Origin: a virus
Strand: one strand, 5' to 3'
Virus record (IMG/VR): IMGVR_UViG_3300044971_004534
Length of the DNA stretch: 64,000 bases
The notes beneath the pieces are model-generated. The model saw only the letters and a list, made by a program, of their open reading frames with translations, was not told where the DNA came from and searched no databases. Position numbers and translations under genes: made by a program. Positions 18,898-60,318 of this stretch are shown here, one piece after another (within the stretch, counting starts at the first letter, position 1; every line of letters begins with the position of its first letter).

Positions 18898-18901
18898 AAA
18901 A

Positions 18902-18974
18902 CTCTCCGAACTGGGATCGAACCAGTGACATGCGAGTTAACAGCTCGCCGCTCTACCTGCTGAGCTATCGGAGA
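18902..18974 (-). tRNA. tRNA-Asn (anticodon GTT)
   Basis: Folds by hand into a cloverleaf: acceptor TCTCCGA/TCGGAGA, anticodon arm GCGAG-CTGTTAA-CTCGC, T-loop TTCGATC. Confidence 0.9.
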
Positions 18975-18978
18975 AAAA

Positions 18979-19068
18979 CGGATAGAGAGGGATTCGAACC
19001 CCCGGATGGTTTCTTGAACCATCGGCGGTTTAGTAAACCGCAGCCTTAAACCACTCGGCCATCTATCC
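18979..19068 (-). tRNA. type II tRNA, Ser-like, apparent anticodon ACT
   Basis: Acceptor GGATAGA/TCTATCC, discriminator G, long variable arm, anticodon arm GCGGT-TTACTAA-ACCGC, T-loop TTCGAAT. Confidence 0.75.
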
Positions 19069-19095
19069 ATGCCATGTATATCGGCTGCAGATCAA

Positions 19096-23048: not shown

Positions 23049-23399
23049 ATGTCAGATCATATAGTGAAATTAGATAACGACAATTTTGAAAAACAGGTTT
23101 ATCAAAGTGATTTACCTTATTTTGTGCAATTCAGCACTCCATGGTGCGCCCCATGCAGAACATTTGCGCCAATAATGCTATCTCTTGCTGAGCAGTTTGA
23201 CGGCAAGTGCAGGTTTGGGAAAGTTGACGCGGAAGAAAATATGGATTTGGCTTACAGGTTCAATATTGTCTCGGTTCCCACTATGATTATTTTTCATAAA
23301 GATAAAATAGTTGATAGAATCAACGGCTTGATTGGAAGAGAAAACGTTGTCGCCAAGATCGAAAATGCGCTTCAGTCTGCTTCATCTGAGAGAGTTTAA
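23049..23399 (+). CDS. trxA: thioredoxin
   Basis: 'FSTPWCAPCRTFAP' WCxxC active site, 'VPTMIIF'. Confidence 0.9.
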   Translation: MSDHIVKLDNDNFEKQVYQSDLPYFVQFSTPWCAPCRTFAPIMLSLAEQFDGKCRFGKVDAEENMDLAYRFNIVSVPTMIIFHKDKIVDRINGLIGRENVVAKIENALQSASSERV

Positions 23400-25118: not shown

Positions 25119-25304
25119 ATGCAAAAAGAAAAAAAGGTTTTGGTAGTTTCTAGAAAAGTCGGTGAAGTGGTCGTGATTGGAGAGCCCACCAACCCTCTCG
25201 GTGAAGTCGAAATCGTGAAGGTTGAGGGTGGAAAGGTCAGAATCGCGTTCCGCTTTCCAGAAGACGTGAAAATCAATCGTGAAGAAGTTGCGCTGACTAA
25301 GTAA
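25119..25304 (+). CDS. csrA: carbon storage regulator CsrA/RsmA homologue
   Basis: 'VLVVSRKVGEVVVIGE...VEIVKVEGGKVRIAFRFPEDVKINREEV' colinear with CsrA 'LILTRRVGE..IGD..V.VL.V.G.QVR.G..AP..V.V.REE'. Confidence 0.8.
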   Translation: MQKEKKVLVVSRKVGEVVVIGEPTNPLGEVEIVKVEGGKVRIAFRFPEDVKINREEVALTK

Positions 25305-27872: not shown

Positions 27873-28424
27873 ATGGAAACTCGTAACATAATAGATCACT
27901 ATGCATACTGGAACGATGACGCTATTAGAGCTGATCTTGATGATAAGCGTTTTAACTATTCAGTTGTGTGCTGCAATATTGGGAACGATTTTAATATTGC
28001 AACCGTTATTCGCAACGCTAATGCGTTTCTTGCGAAAGAAGTCGTAATTTATGGCAACAAAAAGTACGATAGGCGTGGGACTGTTGGAACGCATCACTAC
28101 ACCAATTTTCGTCATGTTAAGTCTGTTGACGATCTTTCTGCTTATTTTTGCTCACTGGGGGGAGTACATGATGTCGAAAGAGTCCAAATCATCGGAATAG
28201 ATAATGTGGGTCATTCGGAAAACATCAATGATTTTTCATTTGACCCATCAGTTTACTATGTGATGATTTTCGGTCAGGAGCAAATAGGCATCCCGACAGA
28301 AGTTCTTGAGATGTGCGATCATGTCCTCTACATTCCTCAGTACGGGTCTGTGAGGAGTATTAATGTGGGGTCTGCCAGCGCAATCGCCATGAATGCCTAC
28401 TGTGCCTCTTGCGCGCTTGTGTAA
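27873..28424 (+). CDS. SpoU/TrmH family RNA 2'-O-methyltransferase
   Basis: 'NDFNIATVIRNANAF', 'IFGQEQIGIPTEVLEMCDHVLYIPQYGSVRSINVGSASAIAM' = SpoU motifs. Confidence 0.75.
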   Translation: METRNIIDHYAYWNDDAIRADLDDKRFNYSVVCCNIGNDFNIATVIRNANAFLAKEVVIYGNKKYDRRGTVGTHHYTNFRHVKSVDDLSAYFCSLGGVHDVERVQIIGIDNVGHSENINDFSFDPSVYYVMIFGQEQIGIPTEVLEMCDHVLYIPQYGSVRSINVGSASAIAMNAYCASCALV

Positions 28425-31519: not shown

Positions 31520-31858
31520 ATGAACTACAAGGATCTACAATACCGTCTACGCTGCCATACCAAGCGCACAGATCTTCCCTCTGATGTTCTGCGGGACATT
31601 GGTGAGGCGTATGCAGAGATCGCAGATCTTTCCAAACGCATCATAGACATACAGGTTTTGTACGAACGCTTGATAGAGGTCGAGCTAGCTGCTTCTTTGG
31701 AGCGTGACGAGGCGAGGCGTGAGTTGTGCAGGAATGAGGCAATCATCCGTTTGCAACGGCATCGTGTCCATAGAGACAGCGAAGATGTCGTGGGTCTGGC
31801 AAAGGAGATAGCGGTTGAGCGCGGATGGGACTGCTTCAAGGAGAACGCGGATGTTTGA
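31520..31858 (+). CDS. ERDEAR...GWDCFKEN family small protein
   Basis: 'LERDEARRELC...AVERGWDCFKENADV'; C-terminal 53 aa identical to 36575-36865. Confidence 0.65.
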   Translation: MNYKDLQYRLRCHTKRTDLPSDVLRDIGEAYAEIADLSKRIIDIQVLYERLIEVELAASLERDEARRELCRNEAIIRLQRHRVHRDSEDVVGLAKEIAVERGWDCFKENADV

Positions 31859-31932
31859 AAGAGGAAACTACGAATGAGCAATCTTTCAAAGCCTGTTAAC
31901 ACACGTTATTACAAGCCTCTAGAAAATCCAAC
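31699..31932 (+). repeat. 234-bp exact direct repeat, copy 1
   Basis: Identical by eye to 36706-36939 (offset 5007 bp); spans gene 3' end, intergenic SD and the next gene's 5' end. Confidence 0.85.
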
Positions 31933-32164
31933 CCGATACCCTCTTGAGTTGTGTTCTGACCATCATATTTGCCTATGGTCGGAGGATGGAAAATTCAAGT
32001 GGTCGATAGCATATTTCATAAAGGGTAAAGAAGGATATGATTTGATGTTTGTCGGAGATAGGCCGCTTGACTCCCGTGTAGATTGGAATCATTTCAGAGA
32101 ACTTGTGGTTCTTGGTCAAAGGCTTGCAGATGAAAAGTGGCAGAATGAAGGAAACTACGAATGA
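31874..32164 (+). CDS. hypothetical protein, paralogue of 36881-37186
   Basis: 'MSNLSKPVNTRYYKPLENPTRYPLELCSDHHICLWSEDGKFKW' shared with the second copy. Confidence 0.6.
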   Translation: MSNLSKPVNTRYYKPLENPTRYPLELCSDHHICLWSEDGKFKWSIAYFIKGKEGYDLMFVGDRPLDSRVDWNHFRELVVLGQRLADEKWQNEGNYE

Positions 32165-32778
32165 TTGAACCAACAGAAGGTGAAATTGTTGATGTTCTGA
32201 ACAACTACCTCAACAGCGGTAACCGAGATACATTTCATCAGATTTTGATTGGTCGTGCCATTGCTGAGATCAAGCATCTCCGCATGCGTGTTGCCGATCT
32301 CAAAAATGGATTTGAAGGTTCATGCACTGCATGTGAGCCTGTTGCTGAGATGAATAGAAAGTTGATGGAGGAGCGGGATGAAGCAAGGTGGGAAGTCTGT
32401 GGTTTCCATCACCTGACTGGATTCCTTGCAGGAGATTACGCAATCTCCCGTGGTTGGAATTATTTCAATGATGAAAGAAAGTGGCCAAAGTTTCCACAAT
32501 CGGTAACTGATTTCAAGCTGTTCCTTGAAGGTCAAGATAAGATTTTTCTTGAAAGTAATGATCGACTCCGCAAGGAACGGGACGAGGCGAGGCGGCTCCT
32601 GAAGGCTGTCGTAGACATGATGCGCGACAACATGGCTCCCGATGCCACGCACCCGAAGCATGTGTGCGACTTCATTTACTGCCCCGAAATCGCTACATGC
32701 ATGGTGTGCGAGAACTGGACTGACGCACTAGTGATGTGCTACCCCGATGATTTTCAGGACGAGGAGGAAACCAAATGA
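32161..32778 (+). CDS. ERDEAR family protein (two modules)
   Basis: 'MEERDEARWEVC...AISRGWNYFNDE' and 'RKERDEARRLL'; ATGA overlap. Confidence 0.6.
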   Translation: MIEPTEGEIVDVLNNYLNSGNRDTFHQILIGRAIAEIKHLRMRVADLKNGFEGSCTACEPVAEMNRKLMEERDEARWEVCGFHHLTGFLAGDYAISRGWNYFNDERKWPKFPQSVTDFKLFLEGQDKIFLESNDRLRKERDEARRLLKAVVDMMRDNMAPDATHPKHVCDFIYCPEIATCMVCENWTDALVMCYPDDFQDEEETK

Positions 32779-32996
32779 TTGAATACAAATGGAAAGAACT
32801 AAAAGACAAGCGGCTACTGCTGACTGACAGGATCACAAGAATCAAACGCAGCGAATGGACGCTGCTTGAAATCTCTCCAAACAGCAAGGTGGGAAAGTTC
32901 CGCAACGAACTTGCCGACACCTGTTTTTGGACTGACCTTGATGATCTCGTCGTGATGGATGTGCTTCACGACATGTACAAGGAGGAAACCAAGTGA
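32775..32996 (+). CDS. hypothetical protein
   Basis: 73 aa; ATGA overlap, 'ggaggaaaccaaATG' SD. Confidence 0.5.
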   Translation: MIEYKWKELKDKRLLLTDRITRIKRSEWTLLEISPNSKVGKFRNELADTCFWTDLDDLVVMDVLHDMYKEETK

Positions 32997-33229
32997 ACGA
33001 ACACGATGCCATCGCAAGGATCAAGAGACTGTCTCACAGCATCAACTGTGCCGATGAGATCGCAGAAGTGATTGAGCGGCTAATCAAGGAGCGTGATGAG
33101 TTACGCTGCGAGGTTTGTGATTGGGTGGGCAACCACTTCAAGGAGCCACCGCAGGATGTAGCAAAGAGAAACGGCTGGGACTGCTTTGATACGGGTGTTT
33201 GGGATTGCTACAAGGAGAAAAGCAAGTGA
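32993..33229 (+). CDS. ERDEAR family small protein
   Basis: GTG start in a GTGA overlap; 'IKERDELRCEVC...AKRNGWDCFD'. Confidence 0.55.
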   Translation: MNEHDAIARIKRLSHSINCADEIAEVIERLIKERDELRCEVCDWVGNHFKEPPQDVAKRNGWDCFDTGVWDCYKEKSK

Positions 33230-33597
33230 CCCCACACAATCTCAACATCTTGCTTGGACTTTCCACAGTCGGATTCGTCGTGGTGTCCCTGCTCTACATG
33301 ATTCACTTGCATGACACCAAGTGGAAACTCTTGAGCAAGGACAACAAGATTCGTCACCTTGAATCCGAGTTGCGCCACTACAGCAGTCTCTACTTTTCGG
33401 GATGCGCTTGCAAGAAGAGCCACGCACACACCGAGGAAGCGGAGAGCAAGCCCAATGAGAAGCACAGCAGCGGATGGTTCTCGTCCCTATTGAAAATGGG
33501 TATCTTGGCGGCGATTGCCTACCTTGCCTATTTCCTGTACAAGAAGTACAAGCAACGCTCAAAACCCGTTCCCGTCACAACAGAAGTAATCAACTGA
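33226..33597 (+). CDS. membrane protein
   Basis: GTG 33226 (GTGA overlap; 'aaggagaaaagcaaGTG'); N- and C-terminal hydrophobic helices, ends 'YFLYKKYKQR...'. Confidence 0.5.
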   Translation: MTPHNLNILLGLSTVGFVVVSLLYMIHLHDTKWKLLSKDNKIRHLESELRHYSSLYFSGCACKKSHAHTEEAESKPNEKHSSGWFSSLLKMGILAAIAYLAYFLYKKYKQRSKPVPVTTEVIN

Positions 33598-33617
33598 AAC
33601 ACAGAAAGGAGAAAGCC

Positions 33618-33719
33618 ATGAATAACTTTTGGAAGTACATCAAAGCCGCAGCCATCGTTGCTGGAGTGTCAATGGTGGCATACTACGGCTACAAAAAGAT
33701 CCGCAAGATGTTTGCTTGA
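33618..33719 (+). CDS. small membrane protein (33 aa)
   Basis: 'aaaggagaaagccATG'; 'MNNFWKYIKAAAIVAGVSMVAYYGYKKIRKMFA'. Confidence 0.35.
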   Translation: MNNFWKYIKAAAIVAGVSMVAYYGYKKIRKMFA

Positions 33720-33744
33720 CAGCACACCATTTACCTGCTATACT
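33716..33744 (+). promoter_or_regulatory. sigma70-like promoter
   Basis: TTGACA-17 nt-TATACT; same architecture and flanks as 34925-34953. Confidence 0.6.
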
Positions 33745-33765
33745 CTAACAACAAGGAGACTGACA

Positions 33766-34047
33766 ATGACTAAGACTGCAACAAAGAACAAGACCAACAA
33801 GACCGTTACCACAAGTGCATCTGACCTCTACGACATCGCAAAGACGATGGAGGGTCTGTTCGCAAAGATTACTAAACTCAACAATAATGTCTCGTCACGC
33901 TCCATCAGCGGTCGTGATATTGAGAAGGCATGTGATGACATCTCAGAGGAGATGGGTGAGGCATTCGACACCCTGAAGACCATCCTCATTCAGAATGAAG
34001 TTGTCAGCGGACCTTCCTACCCCCTCACTCTGCCCAAGAAGATTTGA
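33766..34047 (+). CDS. T/K-rich N-terminus small protein
   Basis: 'caaggagactgacaATG'; 'MTKTATKNKTNKTV' N-terminus shared with 34975-35472. Confidence 0.55.
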   Translation: MTKTATKNKTNKTVTTSASDLYDIAKTMEGLFAKITKLNNNVSSRSISGRDIEKACDDISEEMGEAFDTLKTILIQNEVVSGPSYPLTLPKKI

Positions 34048-34064
34048 TAACAAGGAGAACAACA

Positions 34065-34238
34065 ATGACTAACACCTGCGCCATGACACTCGCACAGAAG
34101 TCCGACCGCATCCTCGCGCAGACGCGAGGCTTGAGCGGAGCGACACCGAACGCCACGCAACTCATCGAAGAACTGCGGTGGGCGTTGGAGGAAAACATGA
34201 AGGAAGTGCAGCGGCTACGGAAGGAGGAAAGCAAGTGA
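34065..34238 (+). CDS. small coiled-coil protein (57 aa)
   Basis: 'caaggagaacaacaATG' junction cassette. Confidence 0.45.
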   Translation: MTNTCAMTLAQKSDRILAQTRGLSGATPNATQLIEELRWALEENMKEVQRLRKEESK

Positions 34239-34357
34239 GCGACGATTTCGGAATCGGAGTGATTGTCGGCATCGTCCTGACGATGCTGTGTTGCCTCGCA
34301 GGGATCGGGATAAGCGTGCTGTTTCCAAGACGCCCGAAGAAGGAGGACGGCAAGTGA
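34235..34357 (+). CDS. small membrane protein (40 aa)
   Basis: GTG start in a GTGA overlap after 'aaggaggaaagcaa'; hydrophobic 'GIGVIVGIVLTMLCCLAGIGISVLF'. Confidence 0.35.
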   Translation: MSDDFGIGVIVGIVLTMLCCLAGIGISVLFPRRPKKEDGK

Positions 34358-34599
34358 AGGACACAGACATCATTGCGGCGATTGCGCCCGATGCGGTATC
34401 GCTGATGGACAAGGCAATTGCGGAGATCAAGCGTCTGCGGCAGGAGAACGCAACCCTCACCGCCGAGCGAGATGAGGCACGACAGGAAGTGTGTTTTCTG
34501 TTGTCTCGTAATGTCACACAGGGATGTGACGGAGACACCCCAGAGTTTCATGCCACCGCCCGTGGGTGGTGCTACCTACTTGAGGAGGACGACGAATGA
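34354..34599 (+). CDS. ERDEAR family small protein
   Basis: GTG 34354 (GTGA overlap); 'LTAERDEARQEVC...TARGWCYLLEE'. Confidence 0.55.
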   Translation: MKDTDIIAAIAPDAVSLMDKAIAEIKRLRQENATLTAERDEARQEVCFLLSRNVTQGCDGDTPEFHATARGWCYLLEEDDE

Positions 34600-34928
34600 G
34601 CAACACCCAAACACCTCGCACCGACGCAGCAGAAACAAACTGGTGGAGTGAGGACGGTCTGCGGTCGGCGTTCATTGTTCGTGCAAATTTTGCCCGTGAA
34701 CTGGAGCGGGAGAACGCAATCCTCACCGCCGAGCGCGACGAGGCGAGGAGATATTCTTGCGATCTAGAAGCACGGATCATCGTGCTTGAGGAGGATCGTC
34801 GTGATACATCAAATAAATTTGGTACGAATCCCTGTTCAGAGATTATTCTGCCAGACTATCCTCTTGCAAGAGAGCCTAAAGAGATCGCAAAGCAAAAGGG
34901 CTGGGACTGCTTCAAAGATAACGCTTGA
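34596..34928 (+). CDS. ERDEAR family small protein
   Basis: ATGA overlap; 'LTAERDEARRYSC...AKQKGWDCFKDNA'. Confidence 0.6.
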   Translation: MSNTQTPRTDAAETNWWSEDGLRSAFIVRANFARELERENAILTAERDEARRYSCDLEARIIVLEEDRRDTSNKFGTNPCSEIILPDYPLAREPKEIAKQKGWDCFKDNA

Positions 34929-34953
34929 CAACACCCATAGACTGTACTATACT
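34925..34953 (+). promoter_or_regulatory. sigma70-like promoter
   Basis: TTGACA-17 nt-TATACT overlapping the upstream stop. Confidence 0.6.
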
Positions 34954-34974
34954 ATAACAACAAGGAGATTGACA

Positions 34975-35472
34975 ATGCCTAAGACTGCAACCAAGACCAA
35001 GAACATCACCGTTCATTCCGATGAGATCATTACCGCCTCATCTACCCGCCCCTCTCGCACCATCACCAACACCAACAACGATAGGAAGAACATGAGCATT
35101 GACAAGACCATCACCGTCACGGGCATCAAGTTTTGGAACTGGACGATCACGGCAAAGGTGATTGCAACCTTTGCGTACAATCCCAACACCAACACCTTCT
35201 CTCACACGCAGAACAGCATCGGAACCAACGATGGCGACATCTTTGGTCAGGGCAACGATTCGTCCGTTCCCAACATCTCGTTCAGCAACCATGTCAGCGT
35301 TGACGCTGTTCGTTGGGCAAAGATGAATGCCGATGCAGGAATGAACATCGGGCAGCAAGATGATTGGATTGATGCCATCTACACTTCTGCCGAGTTGAAC
35401 GCTGCTGTGACGGCAGAGTTGGAGTTGCTGAATACCGCTTCCACGATTGTCAAGGAGAACAACAATGACTAA
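34975..35472 (+). CDS. T/K-rich N-terminus protein
   Basis: 'caaggagattgacaATG'; 'MPKTATKTKNITV'; ends 'KENNND' encoded by the next gene's SD+ATG. Confidence 0.55.
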   Translation: MPKTATKTKNITVHSDEIITASSTRPSRTITNTNNDRKNMSIDKTITVTGIKFWNWTITAKVIATFAYNPNTNTFSHTQNSIGTNDGDIFGQGNDSSVPNISFSNHVSVDAVRWAKMNADAGMNIGQQDDWIDAIYTSAELNAAVTAELELLNTASTIVKENNND

Positions 35473-35830
35473 TCACAACAAGATCGCAGCAGATGAGTTT
35501 TGCAACAAGACGCACACTTCACCGATTGAGGCTTATGTCGCCAACAGAATCTATGAGTTGGAGACGCAGGTGAATCGGCTGAAGCAAGAGCGGGATGAAG
35601 CCCGTGCAGCCATTGAAATGCCTGCACAGAAGGCAAGCAAGTTCCGCAACCTGACTCAACAGGCCAACGATGTGCTTGACCTTGCCCGTGGCTATGACCC
35701 CAACTCCCTTGTAGGCAAGTTGGCTTCCCTTTTGGAGCAGACCACTTTCTACAAGGATCTCTACTACAACACGCTGACTCCTGCACAGCGTGAGAATCCG
35801 AATCTCGGTAGCATGGAGGACAGCAAGTGA
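35465..35830 (+). CDS. ERDEAR-containing protein (no GWDCF tail)
   Basis: ATG 35465 in the 'caaggagaacaacaATGACTAA' junction; 'LKQERDEARAAIE'. Confidence 0.5.
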   Translation: MTNHNKIAADEFCNKTHTSPIEAYVANRIYELETQVNRLKQERDEARAAIEMPAQKASKFRNLTQQANDVLDLARGYDPNSLVGKLASLLEQTTFYKDLYYNTLTPAQRENPNLGSMEDSK

Positions 35831-36132
35831 GCAAGACCAAGAAGAAGACCAAGACCACCCGCATCACCAAGACGGAGCGTCTGTGTATTGCAGCAGAGAA
35901 GACCCGTCCAACGGGCATAACCGTTGCTGTGGGAAGACAGTACGAGGTGGAGATCGTCCCGATGTACGACCCCTTTACGCACAAGCGCATGACAGGGGTT
36001 CGTGCGGACCAGTGGGGCGACCCCGATGACACCGCCGCCCCCACCGTCTACATGGAAAGCCCGCATCAGTTGCGAATTCTTGCACAGGCTTTGAATCGGG
36101 CAGCAGATTGGATGGAGGAGGAGATCAAGTGA
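35827..36132 (+). CDS. hypothetical protein with K/T-rich N-terminus
   Basis: GTGA overlap; 'SKTKKKTKTTRITKTER'. Confidence 0.5.
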   Translation: MSKTKKKTKTTRITKTERLCIAAEKTRPTGITVAVGRQYEVEIVPMYDPFTHKRMTGVRADQWGDPDDTAAPTVYMESPHQLRILAQALNRAADWMEEEIK

Positions 36133-36353
36133 GCGACATCACAGACATCGTTTCTCGCCTGCGTAGGACTGACGAGAACAGAGGAGTTGCAATCTGTTCA
36201 GAGGCAGCCGACACCATCGAACAACTCCGCAAAGAGCGTGACGAGGCGAGGCGGCTCTACTGCGTGATGCGCGATGGCGATGACGGTGCGAGTTGCGCGG
36301 ATTGGGCAAAGCGCAAGGGATGGGATTGCTTCAAGGAGAACACCAATGACTAA
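36129..36353 (+). CDS. ERDEAR family small protein
   Basis: GTG 36129 (GTGA overlap); 'RKERDEARRLYC...AKRKGWDCFKENTND'. Confidence 0.55.
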   Translation: MSDITDIVSRLRRTDENRGVAICSEAADTIEQLRKERDEARRLYCVMRDGDDGASCADWAKRKGWDCFKENTND

Positions 36354-36582
36354 AAATAAAACCATCAAGACTGATACCGAGACAATCACTAAGATTTCTG
36401 ACTTTGTTTGGGAACTCTCTACTGAGATGGATGCCATTAAGGATCAGATGGAGGTTTTGCAACTTCGTATGCTTTCTGTTCGCAAGATGCTACAGATAAT
36501 GGAAGACCCCAAGAACGGAACCGCACAAGACCATGCCACCCGACGCGGCTGGGACTGCTTCAAGGAAAACAACAATGATTGA
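36346..36582 (+). CDS. GWDCFKEN-tail small protein
   Basis: ATG 36346 in the junction cassette; 'MTKNKTIKTD...ATRRGWDCFKENNND'. Confidence 0.5.
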   Translation: MTKNKTIKTDTETITKISDFVWELSTEMDAIKDQMEVLQLRMLSVRKMLQIMEDPKNGTAQDHATRRGWDCFKENNND

Positions 36583-36865
36583 CGACGACAAGAACGAAAC
36601 CATTACCTCTCTCCTACACACGATTGCTCTGATACGGGAAGCCGCAGGGGTCGGTGAGAAGCCCATGCTTTCGGAACTGCCCGATGTCATTCGGAAGTTG
36701 CGGAAGGAGCGTGACGAGGCGAGGCGTGAGTTGTGCAGGAATGAGGCAATCATCCGTTTGCAACGGCATCGTGTCCATAGAGACAGCGAAGATGTCGTGG
36801 GTCTGGCAAAGGAGATAGCGGTTGAGCGCGGATGGGACTGCTTCAAGGAGAACGCGGATGTTTGA
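36575..36865 (+). CDS. ERDEAR...GWDCFKEN family small protein
   Basis: ATG 36575; C-terminal half identical to 31520-31858. Confidence 0.6.
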   Translation: MIDDDKNETITSLLHTIALIREAAGVGEKPMLSELPDVIRKLRKERDEARRELCRNEAIIRLQRHRVHRDSEDVVGLAKEIAVERGWDCFKENADV

Positions 36866-36939
36866 AAGAGGAAACTACGAATGAGCAATCTTTCAAAGCC
36901 TGTTAACACACGTTATTACAAGCCTCTAGAAAATCCAAC
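36706..36939 (+). repeat. 234-bp exact direct repeat, copy 2
   Basis: Identical by eye to 31699-31932; homology continues in diverged form to about 37170. Confidence 0.85.
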
Positions 36940-37186
36940 TAGATACCCCCTTGAATTATGTTCGGATCACCACATCTGTCTTTGGTCAGAGGACGGAAAA
37001 TTTAAGTGGACGATAGCGTATTTCGTAAAGCATAAAGAAGGTTACGATTTGACGTTCATTGGAGATAGACCTCTTGACTCCCGCGTAAACTGGGATCATT
37101 TCAGAGAACTTGTAGTTATTGGTCAACAATTTGCAGATAAAGAGTGGGAAAACGAACACAAGGAAACTAAGAATGAACAATTATAA
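36881..37186 (+). CDS. hypothetical protein, paralogue of 31874-32164
   Basis: First 19 codons identical in DNA to the first copy, then diverged. Confidence 0.6.
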   Translation: MSNLSKPVNTRYYKPLENPTRYPLELCSDHHICLWSEDGKFKWTIAYFVKHKEGYDLTFIGDRPLDSRVNWDHFRELVVIGQQFADKEWENEHKETKNEQL

Positions 37187-37367: not shown

Positions 37368-37543
37368 GTGACGATCAACCAAAGACCATTAAGGAAATGG
37401 TTACGGATGCACTGACAAGCGTTGTCACGGAGATGTGGCGGGAAGAAAACCCGTACCTAGATCCGCAGGATTATGCTTATGACTTTCAGCGATTCTGTGA
37501 GAGGAAGTTGTTTTGTGCCATGGGACTAAGAGGGAAGCAGTGA
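37364..37543 (+). CDS. small hypothetical protein (59 aa)
   Basis: Sub-threshold ORF, ATGA overlap upstream and TGATG overlap downstream. Confidence 0.35.
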   Translation: MSDDQPKTIKEMVTDALTSVVTEMWREENPYLDPQDYAYDFQRFCERKLFCAMGLRGKQ

Positions 37544-38130
37544 TGGCATACAAACAGGCATGGCTCATTGGCTGCACCCATTTCGGTCACGATGCCATGT
37601 ATACGTTCAGGAGAAAAAACGGCGAGAAGGTTCGTCCATACCAAAACGCAGCGGAAGGCGATGAGGTGATGGTTGAGAACTGGAATCGTGTGGTAAAACC
37701 CGGTGACAAGGTGTACGTCCTTGGAGATGTCGCTTTCCGTCCTGAGCATCTTGCCGTGATGAATAGCCTGAACGGATCAAAGGTTCTCATCAAGGGAAAC
37801 CACGATGACTTGCAGATGTCTGTCTACGCGAAGTACTTCAGGGACATCCGTGCCACACATCAGTTGGAGAACGAAATACTTTCCCATATCCCGCTGCATC
37901 CGCAGTCTCTTTACAGGCACAAGACTGGCGGCTACTGGCTGAACATCCATGCACATCTTCATGCTGAAGCGGTGATGGAGGGAGATGAAGGATGCCCTGA
38001 TGACCTGATGCGACCGCACATGTCTGAAGATCCCAGGTATTTCTCCGTGTGTGTCGAGCGCATCGGCTACACTCCCATATCCATTGACGAGATCAGGAGC
38101 AGGCTTGACAGGACTGCGAAGGAATCATAA
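37543..38130 (+). CDS. calcineurin-like metallophosphoesterase
   Basis: 'LIGCTHFGHD', 'VYVLGDV', 'LIKGNHD', 'HAHLH' motifs. Confidence 0.75.
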   Translation: MAYKQAWLIGCTHFGHDAMYTFRRKNGEKVRPYQNAAEGDEVMVENWNRVVKPGDKVYVLGDVAFRPEHLAVMNSLNGSKVLIKGNHDDLQMSVYAKYFRDIRATHQLENEILSHIPLHPQSLYRHKTGGYWLNIHAHLHAEAVMEGDEGCPDDLMRPHMSEDPRYFSVCVERIGYTPISIDEIRSRLDRTAKES

Positions 38131-44398: not shown

Positions 44399-45430
44399 TT
44401 ATCGGCACGGATGGAGAAATTTAAGGAAGTCTTCAGATACTTTTTTCCATGTGTGACCGCTTGCGTGCCTGATTGCTCCTTGAGGGGAGCAGTGGATAAT
44501 GGCTAGCACTGTGGCGAGTTTCAGTGCTGGGAGTGAGCCATCAAAGGCGAGGTATCCGTTCTTCCCGTTCTGGACCCAGTCTTTTGGTCCTGTGACGGGG
44601 TATCCCACAACGGGGAGGCCGCATGCATTTGCTTCCAGCATGACGAGTCCAAAGGTGTCGTTTTTTGATGGGAACACGAAGATGTCGGCATTGCGCAGAG
44701 CTCTCCCCACACCTTCTGGTGGGAGTGGGCCACTGAAATGAACTTTGGGGTATTTCTTTTTAAGTGTATTAAGGTACGAGCCACCGCCTACAAAAGTGCA
44801 GTGGAACCCACTGTTGGAGAGTTCGCAGAAGTCGTCTAAGCCTTTCTCTGGGTGGGCTCTGGACACGCATATAAGGCGCTTGGAGTGAATCTTGAGGGCA
44901 TTACGCTTCCACGCAGGCGGGAAGAAGTAGGACTCGTCTACGCCCCTTCCCCAGACGGCAATGCGGTGGGCTGGTGCGAGTAGGTACGACTCGTTGACGA
45001 GCTCGCCCTTTGTGGAGCGTGTGGGTACGAGAATTTTCTTAGAAAGTTTGTGGAACCACTTGAGGTAGCACTGGGTCAAGGACTGGGGGATGCCGTACCA
45101 GTCGTTTAAGATATCGGGAAATTTAGTGTGGTATCCTGTTGTGAAATGGAGGCGGGAGCTCGAGCATGCTCTCCTAGCACTGAAGCCCAGAGGTCCTTCA
45201 GTGAAAATGTGTATATGATCAGGGTTAAAGTCTTTGATTTTTTTCTTTAGGAAGGGGAAGACGAGTTTGACGCCACCGGTGAATGGCAATTGTATTCCCC
45301 AGAAGAGACCTGGATGAAGAAGCAGCACTTCGTGACCCAGCTGGGTAAGTGCTGAAGCTGTATTTTTAACTGTGGTGTAGACGCCATTGATCTGGGGCTC
45401 CCAGGCGTCTGTGACAAGGATAATCCGCAT
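44399..45430 (-). CDS. GT4 family glycosyltransferase (GT-B)
   Basis: 'MRIILVTDAWEPQINGV' and 'FVFPSKNDTFGLVMLEANACGLPVVG' GT4 signatures. Confidence 0.85.
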   Translation of the reverse strand: MRIILVTDAWEPQINGVYTTVKNTASALTQLGHEVLLLHPGLFWGIQLPFTGGVKLVFPFLKKKIKDFNPDHIHIFTEGPLGFSARRACSSSRLHFTTGYHTKFPDILNDWYGIPQSLTQCYLKWFHKLSKKILVPTRSTKGELVNESYLLAPAHRIAVWGRGVDESYFFPPAWKRNALKIHSKRLICVSRAHPEKGLDDFCELSNSGFHCTFVGGGSYLNTLKKKYPKVHFSGPLPPEGVGRALRNADIFVFPSKNDTFGLVMLEANACGLPVVGYPVTGPKDWVQNGKNGYLAFDGSLPALKLATVLAIIHCSPQGAIRHASGHTWKKVSEDFLKFLHPCR

Positions 45431-55947: not shown

Positions 55948-56302
55948 GGGGCTGAACTGGTTTCGATTGCTGAAGGACTATTCGATACTGCACGACGAGG
56001 CTGATGGGCAACTCGTAAAAAGCCGATCAAACAACAACCGCCAACGAATCGTTGATGGCTGTCGCTGCTTGATGCAGCAAAGTTCTTAGAAGTTGGACAC
56101 TTGCTTCTAAGAACTGTCTGAAGTGTCGATCAGCGTACTGCGAAGTTCCAACGCATAAGGCGCTGAAGTTAATATTATATGATTTGGAACTTTCAAAGGA
56201 CTCATGGTACGAGGACTCCTTTGATCGACGGACTCGTACCTAGCGTGGAGAAGGTGCGATAGGACTTTTGCCAACACAGGGGTTCGACTCCCCTCGGCTC
56301 CA
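55948..56302 (+). ncRNA. ssrA: tmRNA (SsrA), one-piece
   Basis: 5' GGGGCTGAACTGGTTTCGA pairs with 3' CGGCTCC + A (G3:U wobble); T-arm GGGGTTCGACTCCCC; tag ORF 56022-56072 'ADQTTTANESLMAVAA*' preceded by in-frame TAA; CCA not encoded. Confidence 0.85.
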
Positions 56303-56311
56303 TTCAGCAAG

Positions 56312-60113: not shown

Positions 60114-60197
60114 GGCTCTGTGGCGGAACTGGCAGACGCAGCGGACTCAAAATCCGCCGCCGTAAAAAGCGTGTGGGTTCGACCCCCACCGGAGCCA
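60114..60197 (+). tRNA. tRNA-Leu (anticodon CAA)
   Basis: Type II; acceptor GGCTCTG/CGGAGCC, 'TGGCGGAACTGGCAGACGC' D-arm, anticodon arm GCGGA-CTCAAAA-TCCGC. Confidence 0.9.
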
Positions 60198-60200
60198 TTC

Positions 60201-60285
60201 GGGACTGTGGCGGAATCGGCATACGCAGCAGACTTAAAATCTGCCGACCTCAAAAGTCTTGTGGGTTCAAGTCCCACCAGTCCCA
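60201..60285 (+). tRNA. tRNA-Leu (anticodon TAA)
   Basis: Type II; acceptor GGGACTG/CAGTCCC, anticodon arm GCAGA-CTTAAAA-TCTGC; 3 nt after the previous tRNA. Confidence 0.9.
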
Positions 60286-60318
60286 CTCTTTTTCCCCCTC
60301 TCCCGGTAGGATTGCGGC
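60286..60318 (+). promoter_or_regulatory. 33-nt promoter-like module, copy 8 (ends at ATG)
   Basis: CTCTTTTTCCCCC + TCTCCCGGTAGGATTGCGGC, then ATG 60319; starts right after tRNA-Leu. Confidence 0.55.

What the first reader, a model, noticed from the sequence alone, without database searches (positions are those of the whole stretch)
31520..37186. Six-kb translationally coupled array of small 'ERDEAR...C...GWDCFKEN' paralogues
At least nine adjacent small genes (74-205 aa) share a coiled-coil segment ending in (K/A)ERDEAR(R)xxC. Most also share a C-terminal (R/K)GW(D/N)CF(K)EN tail, so two Cys positions are conserved. They are joined by ATGA/GTGA overlaps behind GGAGGA. They are also joined by a recurring junction cassette CAAGGAGAACAACAATGAC, seen at about 34051, 35451, 36332 and 36561, where the next gene's SD+ATG encodes the previous protein's 'KENNND' end. 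Tiny membrane proteins and T/K-rich N-terminus proteins are interleaved. I do not recognise this family. Such local expansions in large phages are often host-interaction or anti-defence loci, but that is speculation.
Basis: partly seen in the sequence, partly recalled or inferred. Interest (0 to 1): 0.7.

Follow-up and report, generated by a model that had tools for sequence, protein, structure and literature searches.

The report
Shuffled small-protein cassette array in phage
A 5.7-kb run of tightly coupled small genes in a ~406-kb freshwater phage belongs to a large, undescribed, virus-only protein family whose front and back halves are swapped like cassettes at one invariant 18-base joint, even between giant phages and small T7-like phages; what the proteins do is still unknown.

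Summary
Window 31520-37186 holds 19 same-strand genes. Eight carry ERDE[AL]R (nine motifs, none elsewhere in the 64 kb), a ninth keeps only GWDCFKEN, and 12 of 19 junctions overlap by 4 or 8 nt behind an SD.

No library recognises the family (Pfam, PHROGs, NCBIfam, PADLOC, PDB by sequence and by fold, GenBank phages, literature). It is nevertheless large: 2,607 clusters at 50% identity. It is virus-restricted, found mostly in the replication/early block of freshwater T7-like podophages.

The new finding is mosaicism. N- and C-halves reassort at ERDEAR: 227 N-types x 172 C-types, one C-type with 36 N-partners, 37 complete four-gamete rectangles. The 18-nt joint GAGCGCGACGAGGCGAGG is conserved even at synonymous sites. 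The KE(N) tail doubles as SD and start of the next gene in 78 of 89 cases. A 36-kb T7-like contig shares 96-100% identical segments with this array, with ends at the conserved blocks.

Function is untested. The most likely role is small oligomerising accessory (host-takeover or anti-defence) proteins. An apparent array-less variant could not be separated from assembly ambiguity at a 234-nt exact repeat.

The parts
31520..31858 (+). g1, family member (112 aa): N-module YRLRCHTKRTDLP...; ERDEARRELC; C-module ...ERGWDCFKENADV
   Evidence: identical to P0004, seen on 19 contigs
31699..32140 (+). Direct repeat copy 1 (C-module of g1 plus most of g2); left edge is the first codon of ERDEAR
   Evidence: 442 nt, 40 mismatches against copy 2, first 234 nt identical
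31874..32164 (+). g2, orphan 96-aa gene, paralogue of g19 (86% aa identity)
   Evidence: no Pfam or PHROG match
32161..32778 (+). g3, two-module family member (205 aa): ERDEARWEVC...RGWNYF, then ERDEARRLLK... with a Cys/His-rich tail HPKHVCDFIYCPEIATCMVCENW
   Evidence: AF2 model all-helical but low confidence
32775..32996 (+). g4, orphan 73-aa gene; 100% aa identical copy in T7-like contig L029
32993..33229 (+). g5, family member (78 aa, GTG start): ERDELRCEVC...NGWDCFDTGVWDCYKEKSK
   Evidence: its N-module is found fused to three other C-modules (P0070, P0094, P0140)
33226..33597 (+). g6, small protein with two hydrophobic segments (start uncertain: GTG 33226 or TTG 33199)
   Evidence: N-part shared with L067 at 93%
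33618..33719 (+). g7, 33-aa weakly hydrophobic peptide
   Evidence: (called by JGI)
33716..33744 (+). Promoter-like site TTGACA-17-TATACT (11 of 12); the -35 hexamer overlaps the g7 stop; part of a repeated promoter+SD+start cassette
   Evidence: D8
33766..34047 (+). g8, orphan 93-aa gene with T/K-rich N-terminus (MTKTATKNKTNKT...)
34065..34238 (+). g9, truncated N-module (57 aa) ending LRKEESK* just where ERDEAR would begin; a full-length version exists (P0147)
   Evidence: 34070-34207 shared with 12 or more loci at 90-99%
34235..34357 (+). g10, 40-aa single-pass hydrophobic peptide (GTGA overlaps on both sides); not called by JGI
   Evidence: (95% in L080)
34354..34599 (+). g11, family member (81 aa from GTG 34354; alternative 103-aa start at 34288): AERDEARQEVC...ARGWCYLLEEDDE
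34596..34928 (+). g12, family member (110 aa): AERDEARRYSC...QKGWDCFKDNA; C-module 97% identical in DNA to L029
34925..34953 (+). Promoter-like site TTGACA-17-TATACT (11 of 12); the -35 hexamer overlaps the g12 stop
34975..35472 (+). g13, orphan 165-aa gene with T/K-rich N-terminus; ends ...VKENNND with the junction cassette
35465..35830 (+). g14, divergent member (121 aa): QERDEARAAIE, no Cys and no GWDCF
   Evidence: weak phrog_5915 match over the coiled coil
35827..36132 (+). g15, orphan 101-aa gene with T/K-rich N-terminus (MSKTKKKTKTTRITK...)
36129..36353 (+). g16, canonical compact member (74 aa): DIVSRLR...AADTIEQLRKERDEARRLYC...RKGWDCFKENTND
   Evidence: AF2 three-helix model with pLDDT 78.7
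36346..36582 (+). g17, member with T/K-rich N-module, no ERDEAR, C-end RRGWDCFKENNND; DNA 100% identical to L029 over 36306-36585
36575..36865 (+). g18, family member (96 aa); C-module identical to that of g1
36706..37147 (+). Direct repeat copy 2 (C-module of g18 plus most of g19)
36881..37186 (+). g19, orphan 101-aa gene, paralogue of g2

Best explanation
The interval is a hyperplastic accessory-gene array of a ~406-kb freshwater phage. It is built from members of an undescribed, virus-restricted family of small helical proteins, about 70-110 aa per module.

**Module architecture.**
- A variable N-half, often D-I-V-x-R-L-R, a loop, then AADEIERLRK.
- One invariant heptad, ERDEAR(R)xxC.
- A hypervariable insert of 18-40 aa.
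- (R/K)GWDCFKE.
- A 4-7-aa tail whose codons (AAG GAG ... ATG/GTG) are the Shine-Dalgarno sequence and start codon of the next gene.

**Shown here.**
- Diversity arises by cassette exchange. N- and C-halves reassort at the ERDEAR joint, and whole genes reassort at the GWDCFKEN/SD/start joint.
- Exchange occurs within genomes and between unrelated phage types, namely this huge phage and T7-like podophages.
- The 18-nt joint is conserved at the DNA level beyond what the amino acids require.

**Inferred.**
- Exchange is by homologous or short-homology recombination at these blocks.
- The genes are expressed early, from host-type promoters plus translational coupling.
- The proteins oligomerise through the central helix, with E at heptad position g, R at a, A at d and R at e. 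The two conserved Cys possibly form a shared metal or disulfide site.
- They act as dispensable, fast-evolving binders of host or phage proteins, in host takeover or anti-defence.
For: **Family and motifs.**

**Size and virus restriction.**
- At least 4,750 hits in the word-indexed search.
- 2,607 clusters at 50% identity with E<=1e-3, all 69-278 aa with 1-4 modules.
- At least 298 confirmed stretches in IMG/VR, against 6 short MAG contigs among 185,579 species genomes.
- Tandem arrays of 2-7 copies in 35 of 86 loci.

**Mosaicism.**
- Among proteins that share one C-module, mean pairwise identity is <=0.15 upstream of position -11 and 1.0 in the motif.
- That C-type has 36 N-partners. There are 227 N x 172 C clusters, 363 combinations and 37 complete rectangles.

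**DNA evidence.**
- L029 is T7-like, with RNA_pol, SBB_T7, RusA, Helic-prim_T7 and DNA_pol_A. It shares window 32573-33217 (95.7%), 34727-34922 (96.9%) and 36306-36585 (100%), joined in a different order.
- 17 of 28 breakpoints fall in blocks that cover 16% of the array (p=1e-7).
- L012 is 97% identical to the window up to 31620 and then carries a different array.

**Synonymous-site conservation.**
- Motif codon use is GAG 89%, CGC 73%, GAC 85%, GAG 92%, GCG 79% and AGG 78%. The background for the same codons is about 50%, 28%, 53%, 50%, 25-33% and 9-13%.
- As an internal control, the Gly codon of GWDCF is unbiased.
- The exact 18-mer ending in AGG gives at least 55 family hits (row-capped). 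The CGC synonym gives 4.

**Coupling.** The next start overlaps or abuts the stop in 78 of 89 instances, and 74 of 87 have an SD-like sequence.

**Promoters.**

**Helical model.**

**Coiled-coil character.** Only sub-threshold coiled-coil hits, including the Prp19 segment 'RL.KERDEAR'.
Against: - No experiment or homology links the family to any activity, so the host-interaction role rests on genomic niche and evolutionary tempo alone.
- Oligomerisation and metal binding are untested. Only monomer models were available and no coordinates could be inspected.
- Metagenomic contigs can be chimeric. The one case I could examine closely, array present or absent, turned out ambiguous because the flanking repeat is 234 nt identical and all four junction combinations occur.
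- Synonymous-site conservation might reflect a cis-acting DNA or RNA function, or homogenisation by gene conversion, rather than selection for recombination.
- The codon statistics treat instances as independent although they are related.
Confidence: 0.6

Rival explanations
1. The cassettes are essentially selfish or neutral. They are small genes that persist because they recombine easily into phage genomes at short conserved joints. Insertion is harmless because each cassette brings the SD and start codon for whatever gene lies downstream. The encoded proteins would give the phage no specific benefit.
For: - The tail supplies the translation-initiation region of the next gene in 78 of 89 cases.
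- Downstream genes include essential ones such as primase-helicase, DNA polymerase and the exonuclease.
- Copy number varies from 1 to 9.
- Truncated or partial modules exist: g9, g14, g17.
- The joint is conserved at the DNA level.
Against: - ERDEAR, Cys+4 and GWDCF are conserved as amino acids across 2,607 clusters while everything else varies. The Gly codon of GWDCF is free. This points to purifying selection on a folded, functional protein.
- The compact AF2 model has reasonable confidence.
Confidence: 0.15
2. They are accessory components or regulators of the phage replication/recombination machinery. Examples would be adaptors that bind helicase, SSB, polymerase or DNA ends. The variable halves would track the variants of those partner proteins.
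For: - In T7-like contigs the family always lies inside the DNA-metabolism block, between SSB/RusA, primase-helicase, DNA polymerase and the 5'-3' exonuclease.
- It is often translationally coupled to one of those genes.
Against: - The same cassettes, 96-100% identical in DNA, are present in a 406-kb phage and in T7-like phages with unrelated replication proteins.
- Multiple divergent copies co-exist in one genome.
- No nucleic-acid-binding or enzyme domain is detectable.
Confidence: 0.12
3. The array is a polymorphic effector/immunity-like or superinfection-exclusion locus. ERDEAR would play the role that VENN or PxxxxDPxGL motifs play in CdiA and Rhs, demarcating exchangeable effector ends. 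The interleaved small membrane or orphan genes would be cognate partners.
For: - A conserved demarcation motif with exchangeable C-ends.
- Arrays that contain partial, orphan-like modules.
- Small hydrophobic proteins g6 and g10 interleaved with family genes.
Against: - No secretion or delivery domain and no recognisable toxin domain. The proteins are only 70-110 aa.
- N-halves vary as much as C-halves.
- The downstream neighbour is not a fixed partner class.
- Most loci have no adjacent membrane gene.
Confidence: 0.06
4. The apparent mosaicism is an artefact of metagenome assembly (chimeric joins at short repeats), and the array is an ordinary set of diverged tandem duplicates.
For: - At the one long repeat (234 nt identical), all four junction combinations are found in contigs from different samples. 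Assembler ambiguity would produce this pattern.
- The JGI 406-kb contig ends inside the repeat.
Against: - The joints are 18-40 nt, shorter than the final k-mers of the assemblers.
- Identical mosaic proteins recur on many independent contigs. For example, P0153 is on 41 contigs, P0128 on 26, P0158 on 27 and P0004 on 19.
- 37 complete rectangles were found among 431 unique modules.
- Within the window itself the paralogues have unrelated N-halves joined to related C-halves.
Confidence: 0.04

Closest known systems
Polymorphic toxin loci (CdiA-CT with the VENN motif; Rhs with PxxxxDPxGL) and their orphan-module arrays (from my own knowledge; not tested against those families' models beyond Pfam)
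   Same: - A short invariant peptide motif marks the boundary between exchangeable protein parts.
- Its coding DNA gives the homology for swapping.
- Downstream arrays contain partial, orphan-like modules.
   Different: - The proteins here are tiny, cytoplasmic-looking and phage-encoded.
- There is no delivery domain, toxin domain or fixed immunity partner.
- Both halves vary, not only the C-end.
- The joint lies inside a continuous helix.
Small class II accessory genes of T7-like phages (the slots of T7 genes 3.8-5.9; from my own knowledge) and hyperplastic regions of large phages
   Same: - The same genomic niche: small, dispensable, fast-turnover genes between replication genes.
- Tight translational coupling.
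- In T7 that niche holds host-takeover and anti-defence inhibitors.
   Different: - No sequence similarity to any PHROG with a known function.
- A single family that occupies these slots across thousands of phages.
- An intragenic recombination joint.
Prp19/Pso4 coiled-coil (Pfam PF08606; PDB 8xi2, 3jb9)
   Same: Local sequence match '(A)A..(V)I.RL.KERDEAR' within a coiled-coil oligomerisation helix.
   Different: - E=0.002-0.03, and below the Pfam gathering score.
- Only about 25-55 residues match.
- No U-box or WD40 domain.
- Only 1 of 49 members gives even a weak hit.
- Probably convergence of a charged heptad.
Mosaic evolution of phage genomes through short conserved boundary sequences, and cassette-type gene conversion systems such as pilin and VlsE (from my own knowledge)
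   Same: Variable segments flanked by short conserved DNA blocks that act as crossover points. Combinatorial diversity is generated from a shared pool.
   Different: - One of the joints is inside the reading frame, in the middle of a helix.
- It is conserved at synonymous sites across a very large family.
- The pool is shared between unrelated virus types rather than held as silent copies in one genome.

Membership tests
Any curated protein family (Pfam-A, NCBIfam, PHROGs, PADLOC) | Score at or above the family threshold, or a significant E-value, against a profile HMM | tested here: not met
   All nine members and ten interleaved proteins were scanned. Only sub-threshold coiled-coil hits were found. 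The best were ZapB at 19 bits against a 31.5 cut-off, and phrog_5915 (unknown function) at E=6.7e-5 over 24 residues.
Prp19/Pso4-like (PF08606) | Match to the Prp19 domain at the gathering score (22.7 bits), with the U-box/WD40 architecture | tested here: not met
   g5 scores 14.9 bits (E=0.027). Only 1 of 49 members of A3 hits at E=0.013. The PDB profile search gives E=0.002 over the coiled coil only.
Polymorphic toxins (CDI / Rhs type) | N-terminal delivery or trafficking region and a C-terminal toxin domain | tested here: not met
   The proteins are 69-278 aa with no recognisable domain.
Polymorphic toxins (CDI / Rhs type) | Conserved demarcation motif preceding exchangeable C-terminal parts, with orphan modules downstream | tested here: met
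   ERDEAR marks the exchange point. Partial modules g9, g14 and g17 are present in the array.
Polymorphic toxins (CDI / Rhs type) | Cognate immunity gene immediately downstream of each variable end | tested here: inconclusive
   Downstream neighbours are heterogeneous: another family member, orphan genes, primase-helicase, polymerase. No co-variation test was possible.
Diversity-generating retroelement target | Variable region differing from a nearby template repeat mainly at adenines; reverse transcriptase nearby | tested here: not met
   The variable parts differ in length and are unrelated in sequence. The only long repeat in the region is the 442-nt direct repeat. A reverse transcriptase was not specifically searched for outside the ORFs scanned.
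Solved or predicted structural families | Foldseek match of the AF2 model | tested here: not met
   There were no PDB matches at E<=10. BFVD returned only uncharacterised 'uncultured Caudovirales phage' proteins with 28-40% identity; the two best (36-40% identity) appear to be family members.
Known anti-defence proteins (anti-CRISPR, anti-RM and others) | Homology to a characterised inhibitor | not testable with these tools
   No anti-defence library was available. PHROGs and Pfam, which include some such families, gave nothing.

The most novel reading that the evidence does not exclude
The ERDEAR-coding 18-mer and the GWDCFKEN/SD/start block are functional recombination joints of a community-wide cassette-shuffling system. 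Half-gene modules of small host-targeting proteins would be continually reassorted among co-infecting phages of very different types, from huge phages to T7-like podophages. That would generate combinatorial binding specificities. Because all members share the same dimerisation heptad, heteromers between co-expressed paralogues are also possible. The synonymous-site conservation of the joint would then be maintained by selection for exchangeability, or by a dedicated nuclease or annealase that recognises it.
Probability: 0.3. Interest if true: 0.85.

Novelty: new variant of a known kind. Interest (0 to 1): 0.66.

Why it matters
Three things would matter if this is confirmed.

1. It defines a very large phage protein family (2,607 clusters at 50% identity) that no database names. 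The family sits in the genomic niche where T7-type phages keep their host-takeover and anti-defence inhibitors, so it is a rich candidate pool for new phage-host interaction factors.

2. It gives an unusually clean natural example of intragenic module shuffling. The joint is defined to 18 nt, lies in the middle of a helix and is conserved even at synonymous sites. Modules move between phages as different as a 406-kb phage and 36-kb podophages. That makes two questions directly testable: how short a homology suffices for productive exchange in nature, and whether sequence can be selected for exchangeability.

3. The dual-use C-terminal tail (protein end plus the next gene's ribosome-binding site and start codon) shows how a mobile gene can insert upstream of essential genes without polar effects.

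Tried and rejected
**Searches that found nothing.**
- Megablast and tblastn against 50,697 GenBank phage records gave no match.
- Pfam, PHROGs, NCBIfam and PADLOC gave nothing significant, on single proteins and on the 49-member alignment.
- The PDB profile search gave only a marginal Prp19 coiled-coil match. Foldseek gave no PDB match, and BFVD returned only uncharacterised 'uncultured Caudovirales phage' proteins.
- Full-text searches for ERDEAR, ERDEARR, GWDCF, GWDCFKE, KERDEARR, ADEIERLR and DIVERLR returned no relevant paper. A search for a description of the source phage was not followed up.
- Rfam found only the tRNAs and the tmRNA, and nothing in the array.

**Attempts that failed or were weak.**
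- The search for related loci with the broad alignment A1 failed because it was too divergent. It worked with A2.
- The AF2 model of the two-module protein g3 was too poor to use (pLDDT 67.6, pTM 0.34), so I ran no further search on it.

**Claims withdrawn or rejected.**
- Array-less variant. I first took five contigs that join 31698 to 36706 as proof of an array-less strain. I then found that the repeat is identical for 234 nt and that the reciprocal junction also occurs. That claim is withdrawn to 'unresolved'.
- DGR-type diversification. The variable parts are unrelated in sequence and differ in length.
- DNA mimicry. By my own residue count g16 is only slightly acidic (about 17 acidic against 14 basic residues).
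- Internal in-frame restart after the GAGG-rich motif. g16 has GTG ATG downstream, but other members do not.

Full report
**1. What is in the window**

Window 31520-37186 contains 19 consecutive + strand genes, labelled g1-g19.

ERDE[AL]R occurs nine times in a six-frame translation of the whole 64 kb. All nine are on the + strand inside this interval. They lie in eight genes: g1, g3 (twice), g5, g11, g12, g14, g16 and g18. GW[DN][CY]F-type motifs occur seven times. g17 has RRGWDCFKENNND without ERDEAR. That makes nine family genes, interleaved with ten others:
- g2 and g19, which are paralogues;
- g4;
- the hydrophobic g6, g7 and g10;
- g8, g13 and g15, which have T/K-rich N-termini;
- g9.

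Twelve of the 19 junctions overlap. Nine are ATGA/GTGA overlaps behind AAGGAGG-like sequences. Three are 8-nt overlaps of the ATGACTAA type.

**2. Setting**

The window carries nine tRNAs and a tmRNA, a sugar-modification gene cluster in a low-GC first 28 kb, endonuclease VII, a DnaB/KaiC-like ATPase and DUF2201.

Its proteins occur on 406-kb contigs held by NCBI and JGI. It is a huge freshwater phage. GenBank phages contain nothing similar, in DNA or in protein.

Inside the array, the only two ~47-nt gaps each hold a near-consensus sigma70-type promoter, TTGACA-17-TATACT (11 of 12 matches). In each, the -35 hexamer overlaps the preceding stop codon. Each promoter is followed by a conserved SD and start that leads into a T/K-rich gene. 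No intrinsic terminator was found on the + strand.

**3. The family**

No curated library recognises any member: Pfam, PHROGs, NCBIfam, PADLOC. None of its conserved strings appears in the searchable literature.

The family is nevertheless very large.
- A profile search of the 5.8-billion-protein set gave at least 4,750 hits.
- An exhaustive HMM search of 1.84 billion representatives gave 2,607 clusters at E<=1e-3 and 659 at E<=1e-10. All of the top 150 are 69-278 aa with 1-4 modules, and none shows a fused domain.

It is virus-restricted. IMG/VR holds at least 298 confirmed stretches, whereas 185,579 species genomes give 6 hits, all on short contigs of freshwater MAGs.

In 140 diverse representatives:
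- ERDEAR is exact in 134 of 145 modules;
- Cys lies at motif+4 in 133 of 145;
- a GW.C.-type motif follows in 127 of 145, after an insert mostly 18-40 aa long (median 25);
- the tail is 4-7 aa.

The consensus is xxDIVxRLR-x(~12)-EAADxIERLRKERDEARRExC-x(15-50)-AxxRGWDCFKENxxx.

An AF2 model of g16 has pLDDT 78.7 and pTM 0.61. It shows three helices: 7-18, 21-48 (which carries ERDEAR at 36-41) and 56-63. It has no structural neighbour in the PDB. In BFVD it matches only uncharacterised 'uncultured Caudovirales phage' proteins; the two best, at 36-40% identity, appear to be family members.

The only outside resemblance is a marginal local match to the Prp19 coiled coil, '...RL.KERDEAR'. In heptad terms the motif reads E(g) R(a) D(b) E(c) A(d) R(e). 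That pattern fits an oligomerising helix with g-e' ion pairs. This is inference and was not tested.

**4. Genomic niche elsewhere**

Recurrent neighbours in the viral loci are:
- T7-type RNA polymerase, T7 helicase-primase, T7 SSB, family A DNA polymerase, 5'-3' exonuclease, RusA and a C5-methylase;
- ThyX, a Mu Gam-like protein, dNMP kinase, a metallophosphoesterase and a repair exonuclease.

The family occupies the small-gene slots between SSB/RusA and primase-helicase, between primase-helicase and polymerase, or between polymerase and exonuclease. 35 of 86 loci carry 2-7 tandem same-strand copies.

**5. Mosaicism: the main new result**

Homologues are combinations of a limited pool of N-halves and C-halves, joined at ERDEAR. 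Examples:
- P0070 is the N-half of g5 plus the C-half of g11.
- P0094 is the N-half of g5 plus the second C-half of g3.
- P0114 is the N-half of g18 plus the same C-half.
- P0147 is the N-half of g9 plus the C-half of g16. This shows that g9 is a module cut off just before the motif.

Among proteins that share the g1/g18 C-half, mean pairwise identity is <=0.15 upstream of position -11, 0.15-0.65 (mostly 0.3-0.4) from -10 to -1, 1.0 in the motif, and about 0.85 after it.

I pooled all collected sequences into 431 unique modules and clustered them at >=75% identity over >=80% of length. This gave 227 N-types and 172 C-types in 363 combinations. 51 N-types have at least two C-partners (maximum 15). 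57 C-types have at least two N-partners (maximum 36). There are 37 complete N1C1/N1C2/N2C1/N2C2 rectangles. Divergence alone cannot produce rectangles.

**6. DNA-level evidence and exchange between phage types**

L029 is a 35.8-kb T7-like contig. It shares three segments with the array:
- 32573-33217 at 95.7%;
- 34727-34922 at 96.9%;
- 36306-36585 at 100%.

They are joined differently in L029, where the C-half of g12 runs directly into g17. Their ends lie 2-4 nt from ERDEAR codons or inside the GWDCF/junction blocks.

L080 shares g9-g10 at 98.6%. The g9 N-module is shared with 12 or more loci at 90-99%, and the shared stretch ends where ERDEAR would start.

Of 28 unique breakpoints, 17 fall in conserved blocks that cover 16% of the array (p=1e-7). 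Several of the rest miss by 1-6 nt.

L012 is a fragment of a closely related large phage. It is 97% identical to the window up to 31620 and then carries a different set of seven family genes.

**7. The joint is conserved as DNA**

In 130 unique ERDEAR instances, codon use is:

| Motif position | Codon | Share in motif | Background for that codon |
|---|---|---|---|
| E | GAG | 89% | about 50% |
| R | CGC | 73% | 28% |
| D | GAC | 85% | 53% |
| E | GAG | 92% | about 50% |
| A | GCG | 79% | 25-33% |
| R | AGG | 78% | 9-13% |

The background is usage in the same genes outside the motif and in neighbouring genes. The first Arg is never AGG. Third positions of flanking codons are saturated. As an internal control, the equally conserved Gly of GWDCF uses GGC, GGA and GGT almost evenly.

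The synonym ending in CGC, which is the commonest Arg codon, gave 76 stretches of which 4 are family genes.

The AGG set also shows AADEIERLxxERDEAR N-halves joined to C-parts without GWDCF. The joint therefore serves a pool wider than the family as defined here.

**8. The tail is a translation-initiation region**

In 89 unique instances, K-E after GWDCF is AAG GAG in 58 and 55 cases respectively. The next gene's start overlaps or abuts the stop in 78 cases (offset -1 in 43, -5 in 20). 74 of 87 have an SD-like sequence. So the 'KENxND' conservation is largely explained by the overlapping ribosome-binding site and start codon. This block is also the second recombination joint.

**9. A claim I had to weaken**

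Five contigs from five samples join window 31698 directly to 36706, with 100% identical flanks. That suggested a strain lacking the array. However, the two repeat copies are identical for 234 nt, which is longer than assembler k-mers. The reciprocal junction, g18 followed by g2-g3, also occurs in L289 and L292, so all four combinations exist.

This is what unequal recombination would produce (a deletion plus a duplication or an excised circle). It is equally what assembler ambiguity would produce. It cannot be resolved without reads.

The cross-genome evidence rests on joints of 18-40 nt and on mosaic proteins seen on up to 41 independent contigs. It is much less exposed to this problem.

**10. 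Interpretation**

- *Shown:* a new, very large, virus-restricted family; a defined modular architecture; reassortment at two defined joints, including between unrelated phage types; DNA-level conservation of the intragenic joint; conserved translational coupling.
- *Inferred:* exchange by homologous or short-homology recombination; early expression; oligomerisation through the ERDEAR helix; an accessory role in host takeover or anti-defence. The last rests on the genomic niche, small size, copy-number variation and rapid modular turnover.

The rivals are selfish cassettes, replisome accessories, an effector/immunity-like locus and assembly artefact. They are weighed in the dedicated fields. 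None is excluded for function, but the artefact reading is unlikely for the mosaicism as a whole.

**11. Novelty**

Mosaic accessory regions and boundary-sequence recombination are known in phages. Motif-demarcated exchangeable ends are known in polymorphic toxins. What is new here:
- the family itself;
- the position of the joint inside a helix;
- the joint's synonymous-site conservation across thousands of clusters;
- documented sharing of near-identical cassettes between a 406-kb phage and T7-like podophages.

I rate it a new variant of a known kind, with moderately high interest.

Noticed in passing
window 1-28000 vs 28001-64000: There is a sharp compositional shift. GC is 0.30-0.41 in the first 28 kb, which carries GDP-mannose dehydratase/epimerase-type sugar genes; the remainder is 0.46-0.56 GC and also carries a GT4 glycosyltransferase at 44399-45430. 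The low-GC part looks like an acquired polysaccharide-modification island in the phage.
   Followed up: partly
window 55948-56305 (+), and tRNAs at 18901-19069, 43527, 50894, 55432, 56651, 60114-60286, 62783: The phage encodes a tmRNA (Rfam 85.9 bits; tag ANESLMAVAA) and nine tRNAs. One is a tRNA-Ser that ARAGORN reads with the unusual anticodon ACT.
   Followed up: partly
window 33716-33799 and 34925-35008: A duplicated cassette that contains a promoter-like site (TTGACA-17-TATACT), an SD, a start codon and a T/K-rich N-terminus. In both copies the -35 hexamer overlaps the stop codon of the previous gene (GCTTGACA). A related copy is in L047.
   Followed up: partly
window g8, g13, g15, g17 N-termini; L012 8736-9083 and 9010-9366: The T/K-rich N-termini are encoded by (ACNAAR)n-like hexanucleotide repeats. 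In the related phage fragment L012 they expand to MTMTKTKTKTKTKTKTKTKTK... They could be slippage-prone, or could simply reflect A-rich, unstructured starts that favour initiation.
   Followed up: no
window 32680-32778 (g3 C-terminus): The second module of g3 replaces GWDCF with a Cys/His-rich stretch, HPKHVCDFIYCPEIATCMVCENW...C, that looks like a small metal-binding knuckle. The same C-module is fused to other N-modules (P0094, P0114). AF2 could not model it (pLDDT <50).
   Followed up: partly
L001 (JGI Ga0453198_0000001) end = window 36832: The 406,003-bp JGI contig ends exactly 127 nt into repeat copy 2, so the assembly broke at the array's flanking repeat.
   Followed up: yes
window ~25119-25304, 23049-23399, 27873-28424 (from JGI calls on L001): The phage encodes a CsrA-like protein (PF02599), a thioredoxin and a SpoU-type methylase just upstream of the array region.
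   Followed up: no
window 60201-60287 vs L072 6074-6160: A tRNA-Leu gene of the huge phage is 95% identical to a stretch in an unrelated viral contig that also carries the family. This is another hint of a shared host or gene pool.
   Followed up: no
loci L096-L211: The exact ERDEAR 18-mer also occurs in phage coiled-coil proteins that have the AADEIERLxx N-half but no GWDCF end, such as L096 and L099. It also occurs in other coiled-coil proteins. The joint may serve a broader superfamily of modules.
   Followed up: partly
window 37540-38130 and L012 8048-8674: The phosphoesterase g22 (phrog_547) and the small gene g21 lie downstream of the array in the window. In the related fragment L012 they are embedded in the middle of the array, so the hyperplastic zone extends on both sides of them there.
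   Followed up: partly
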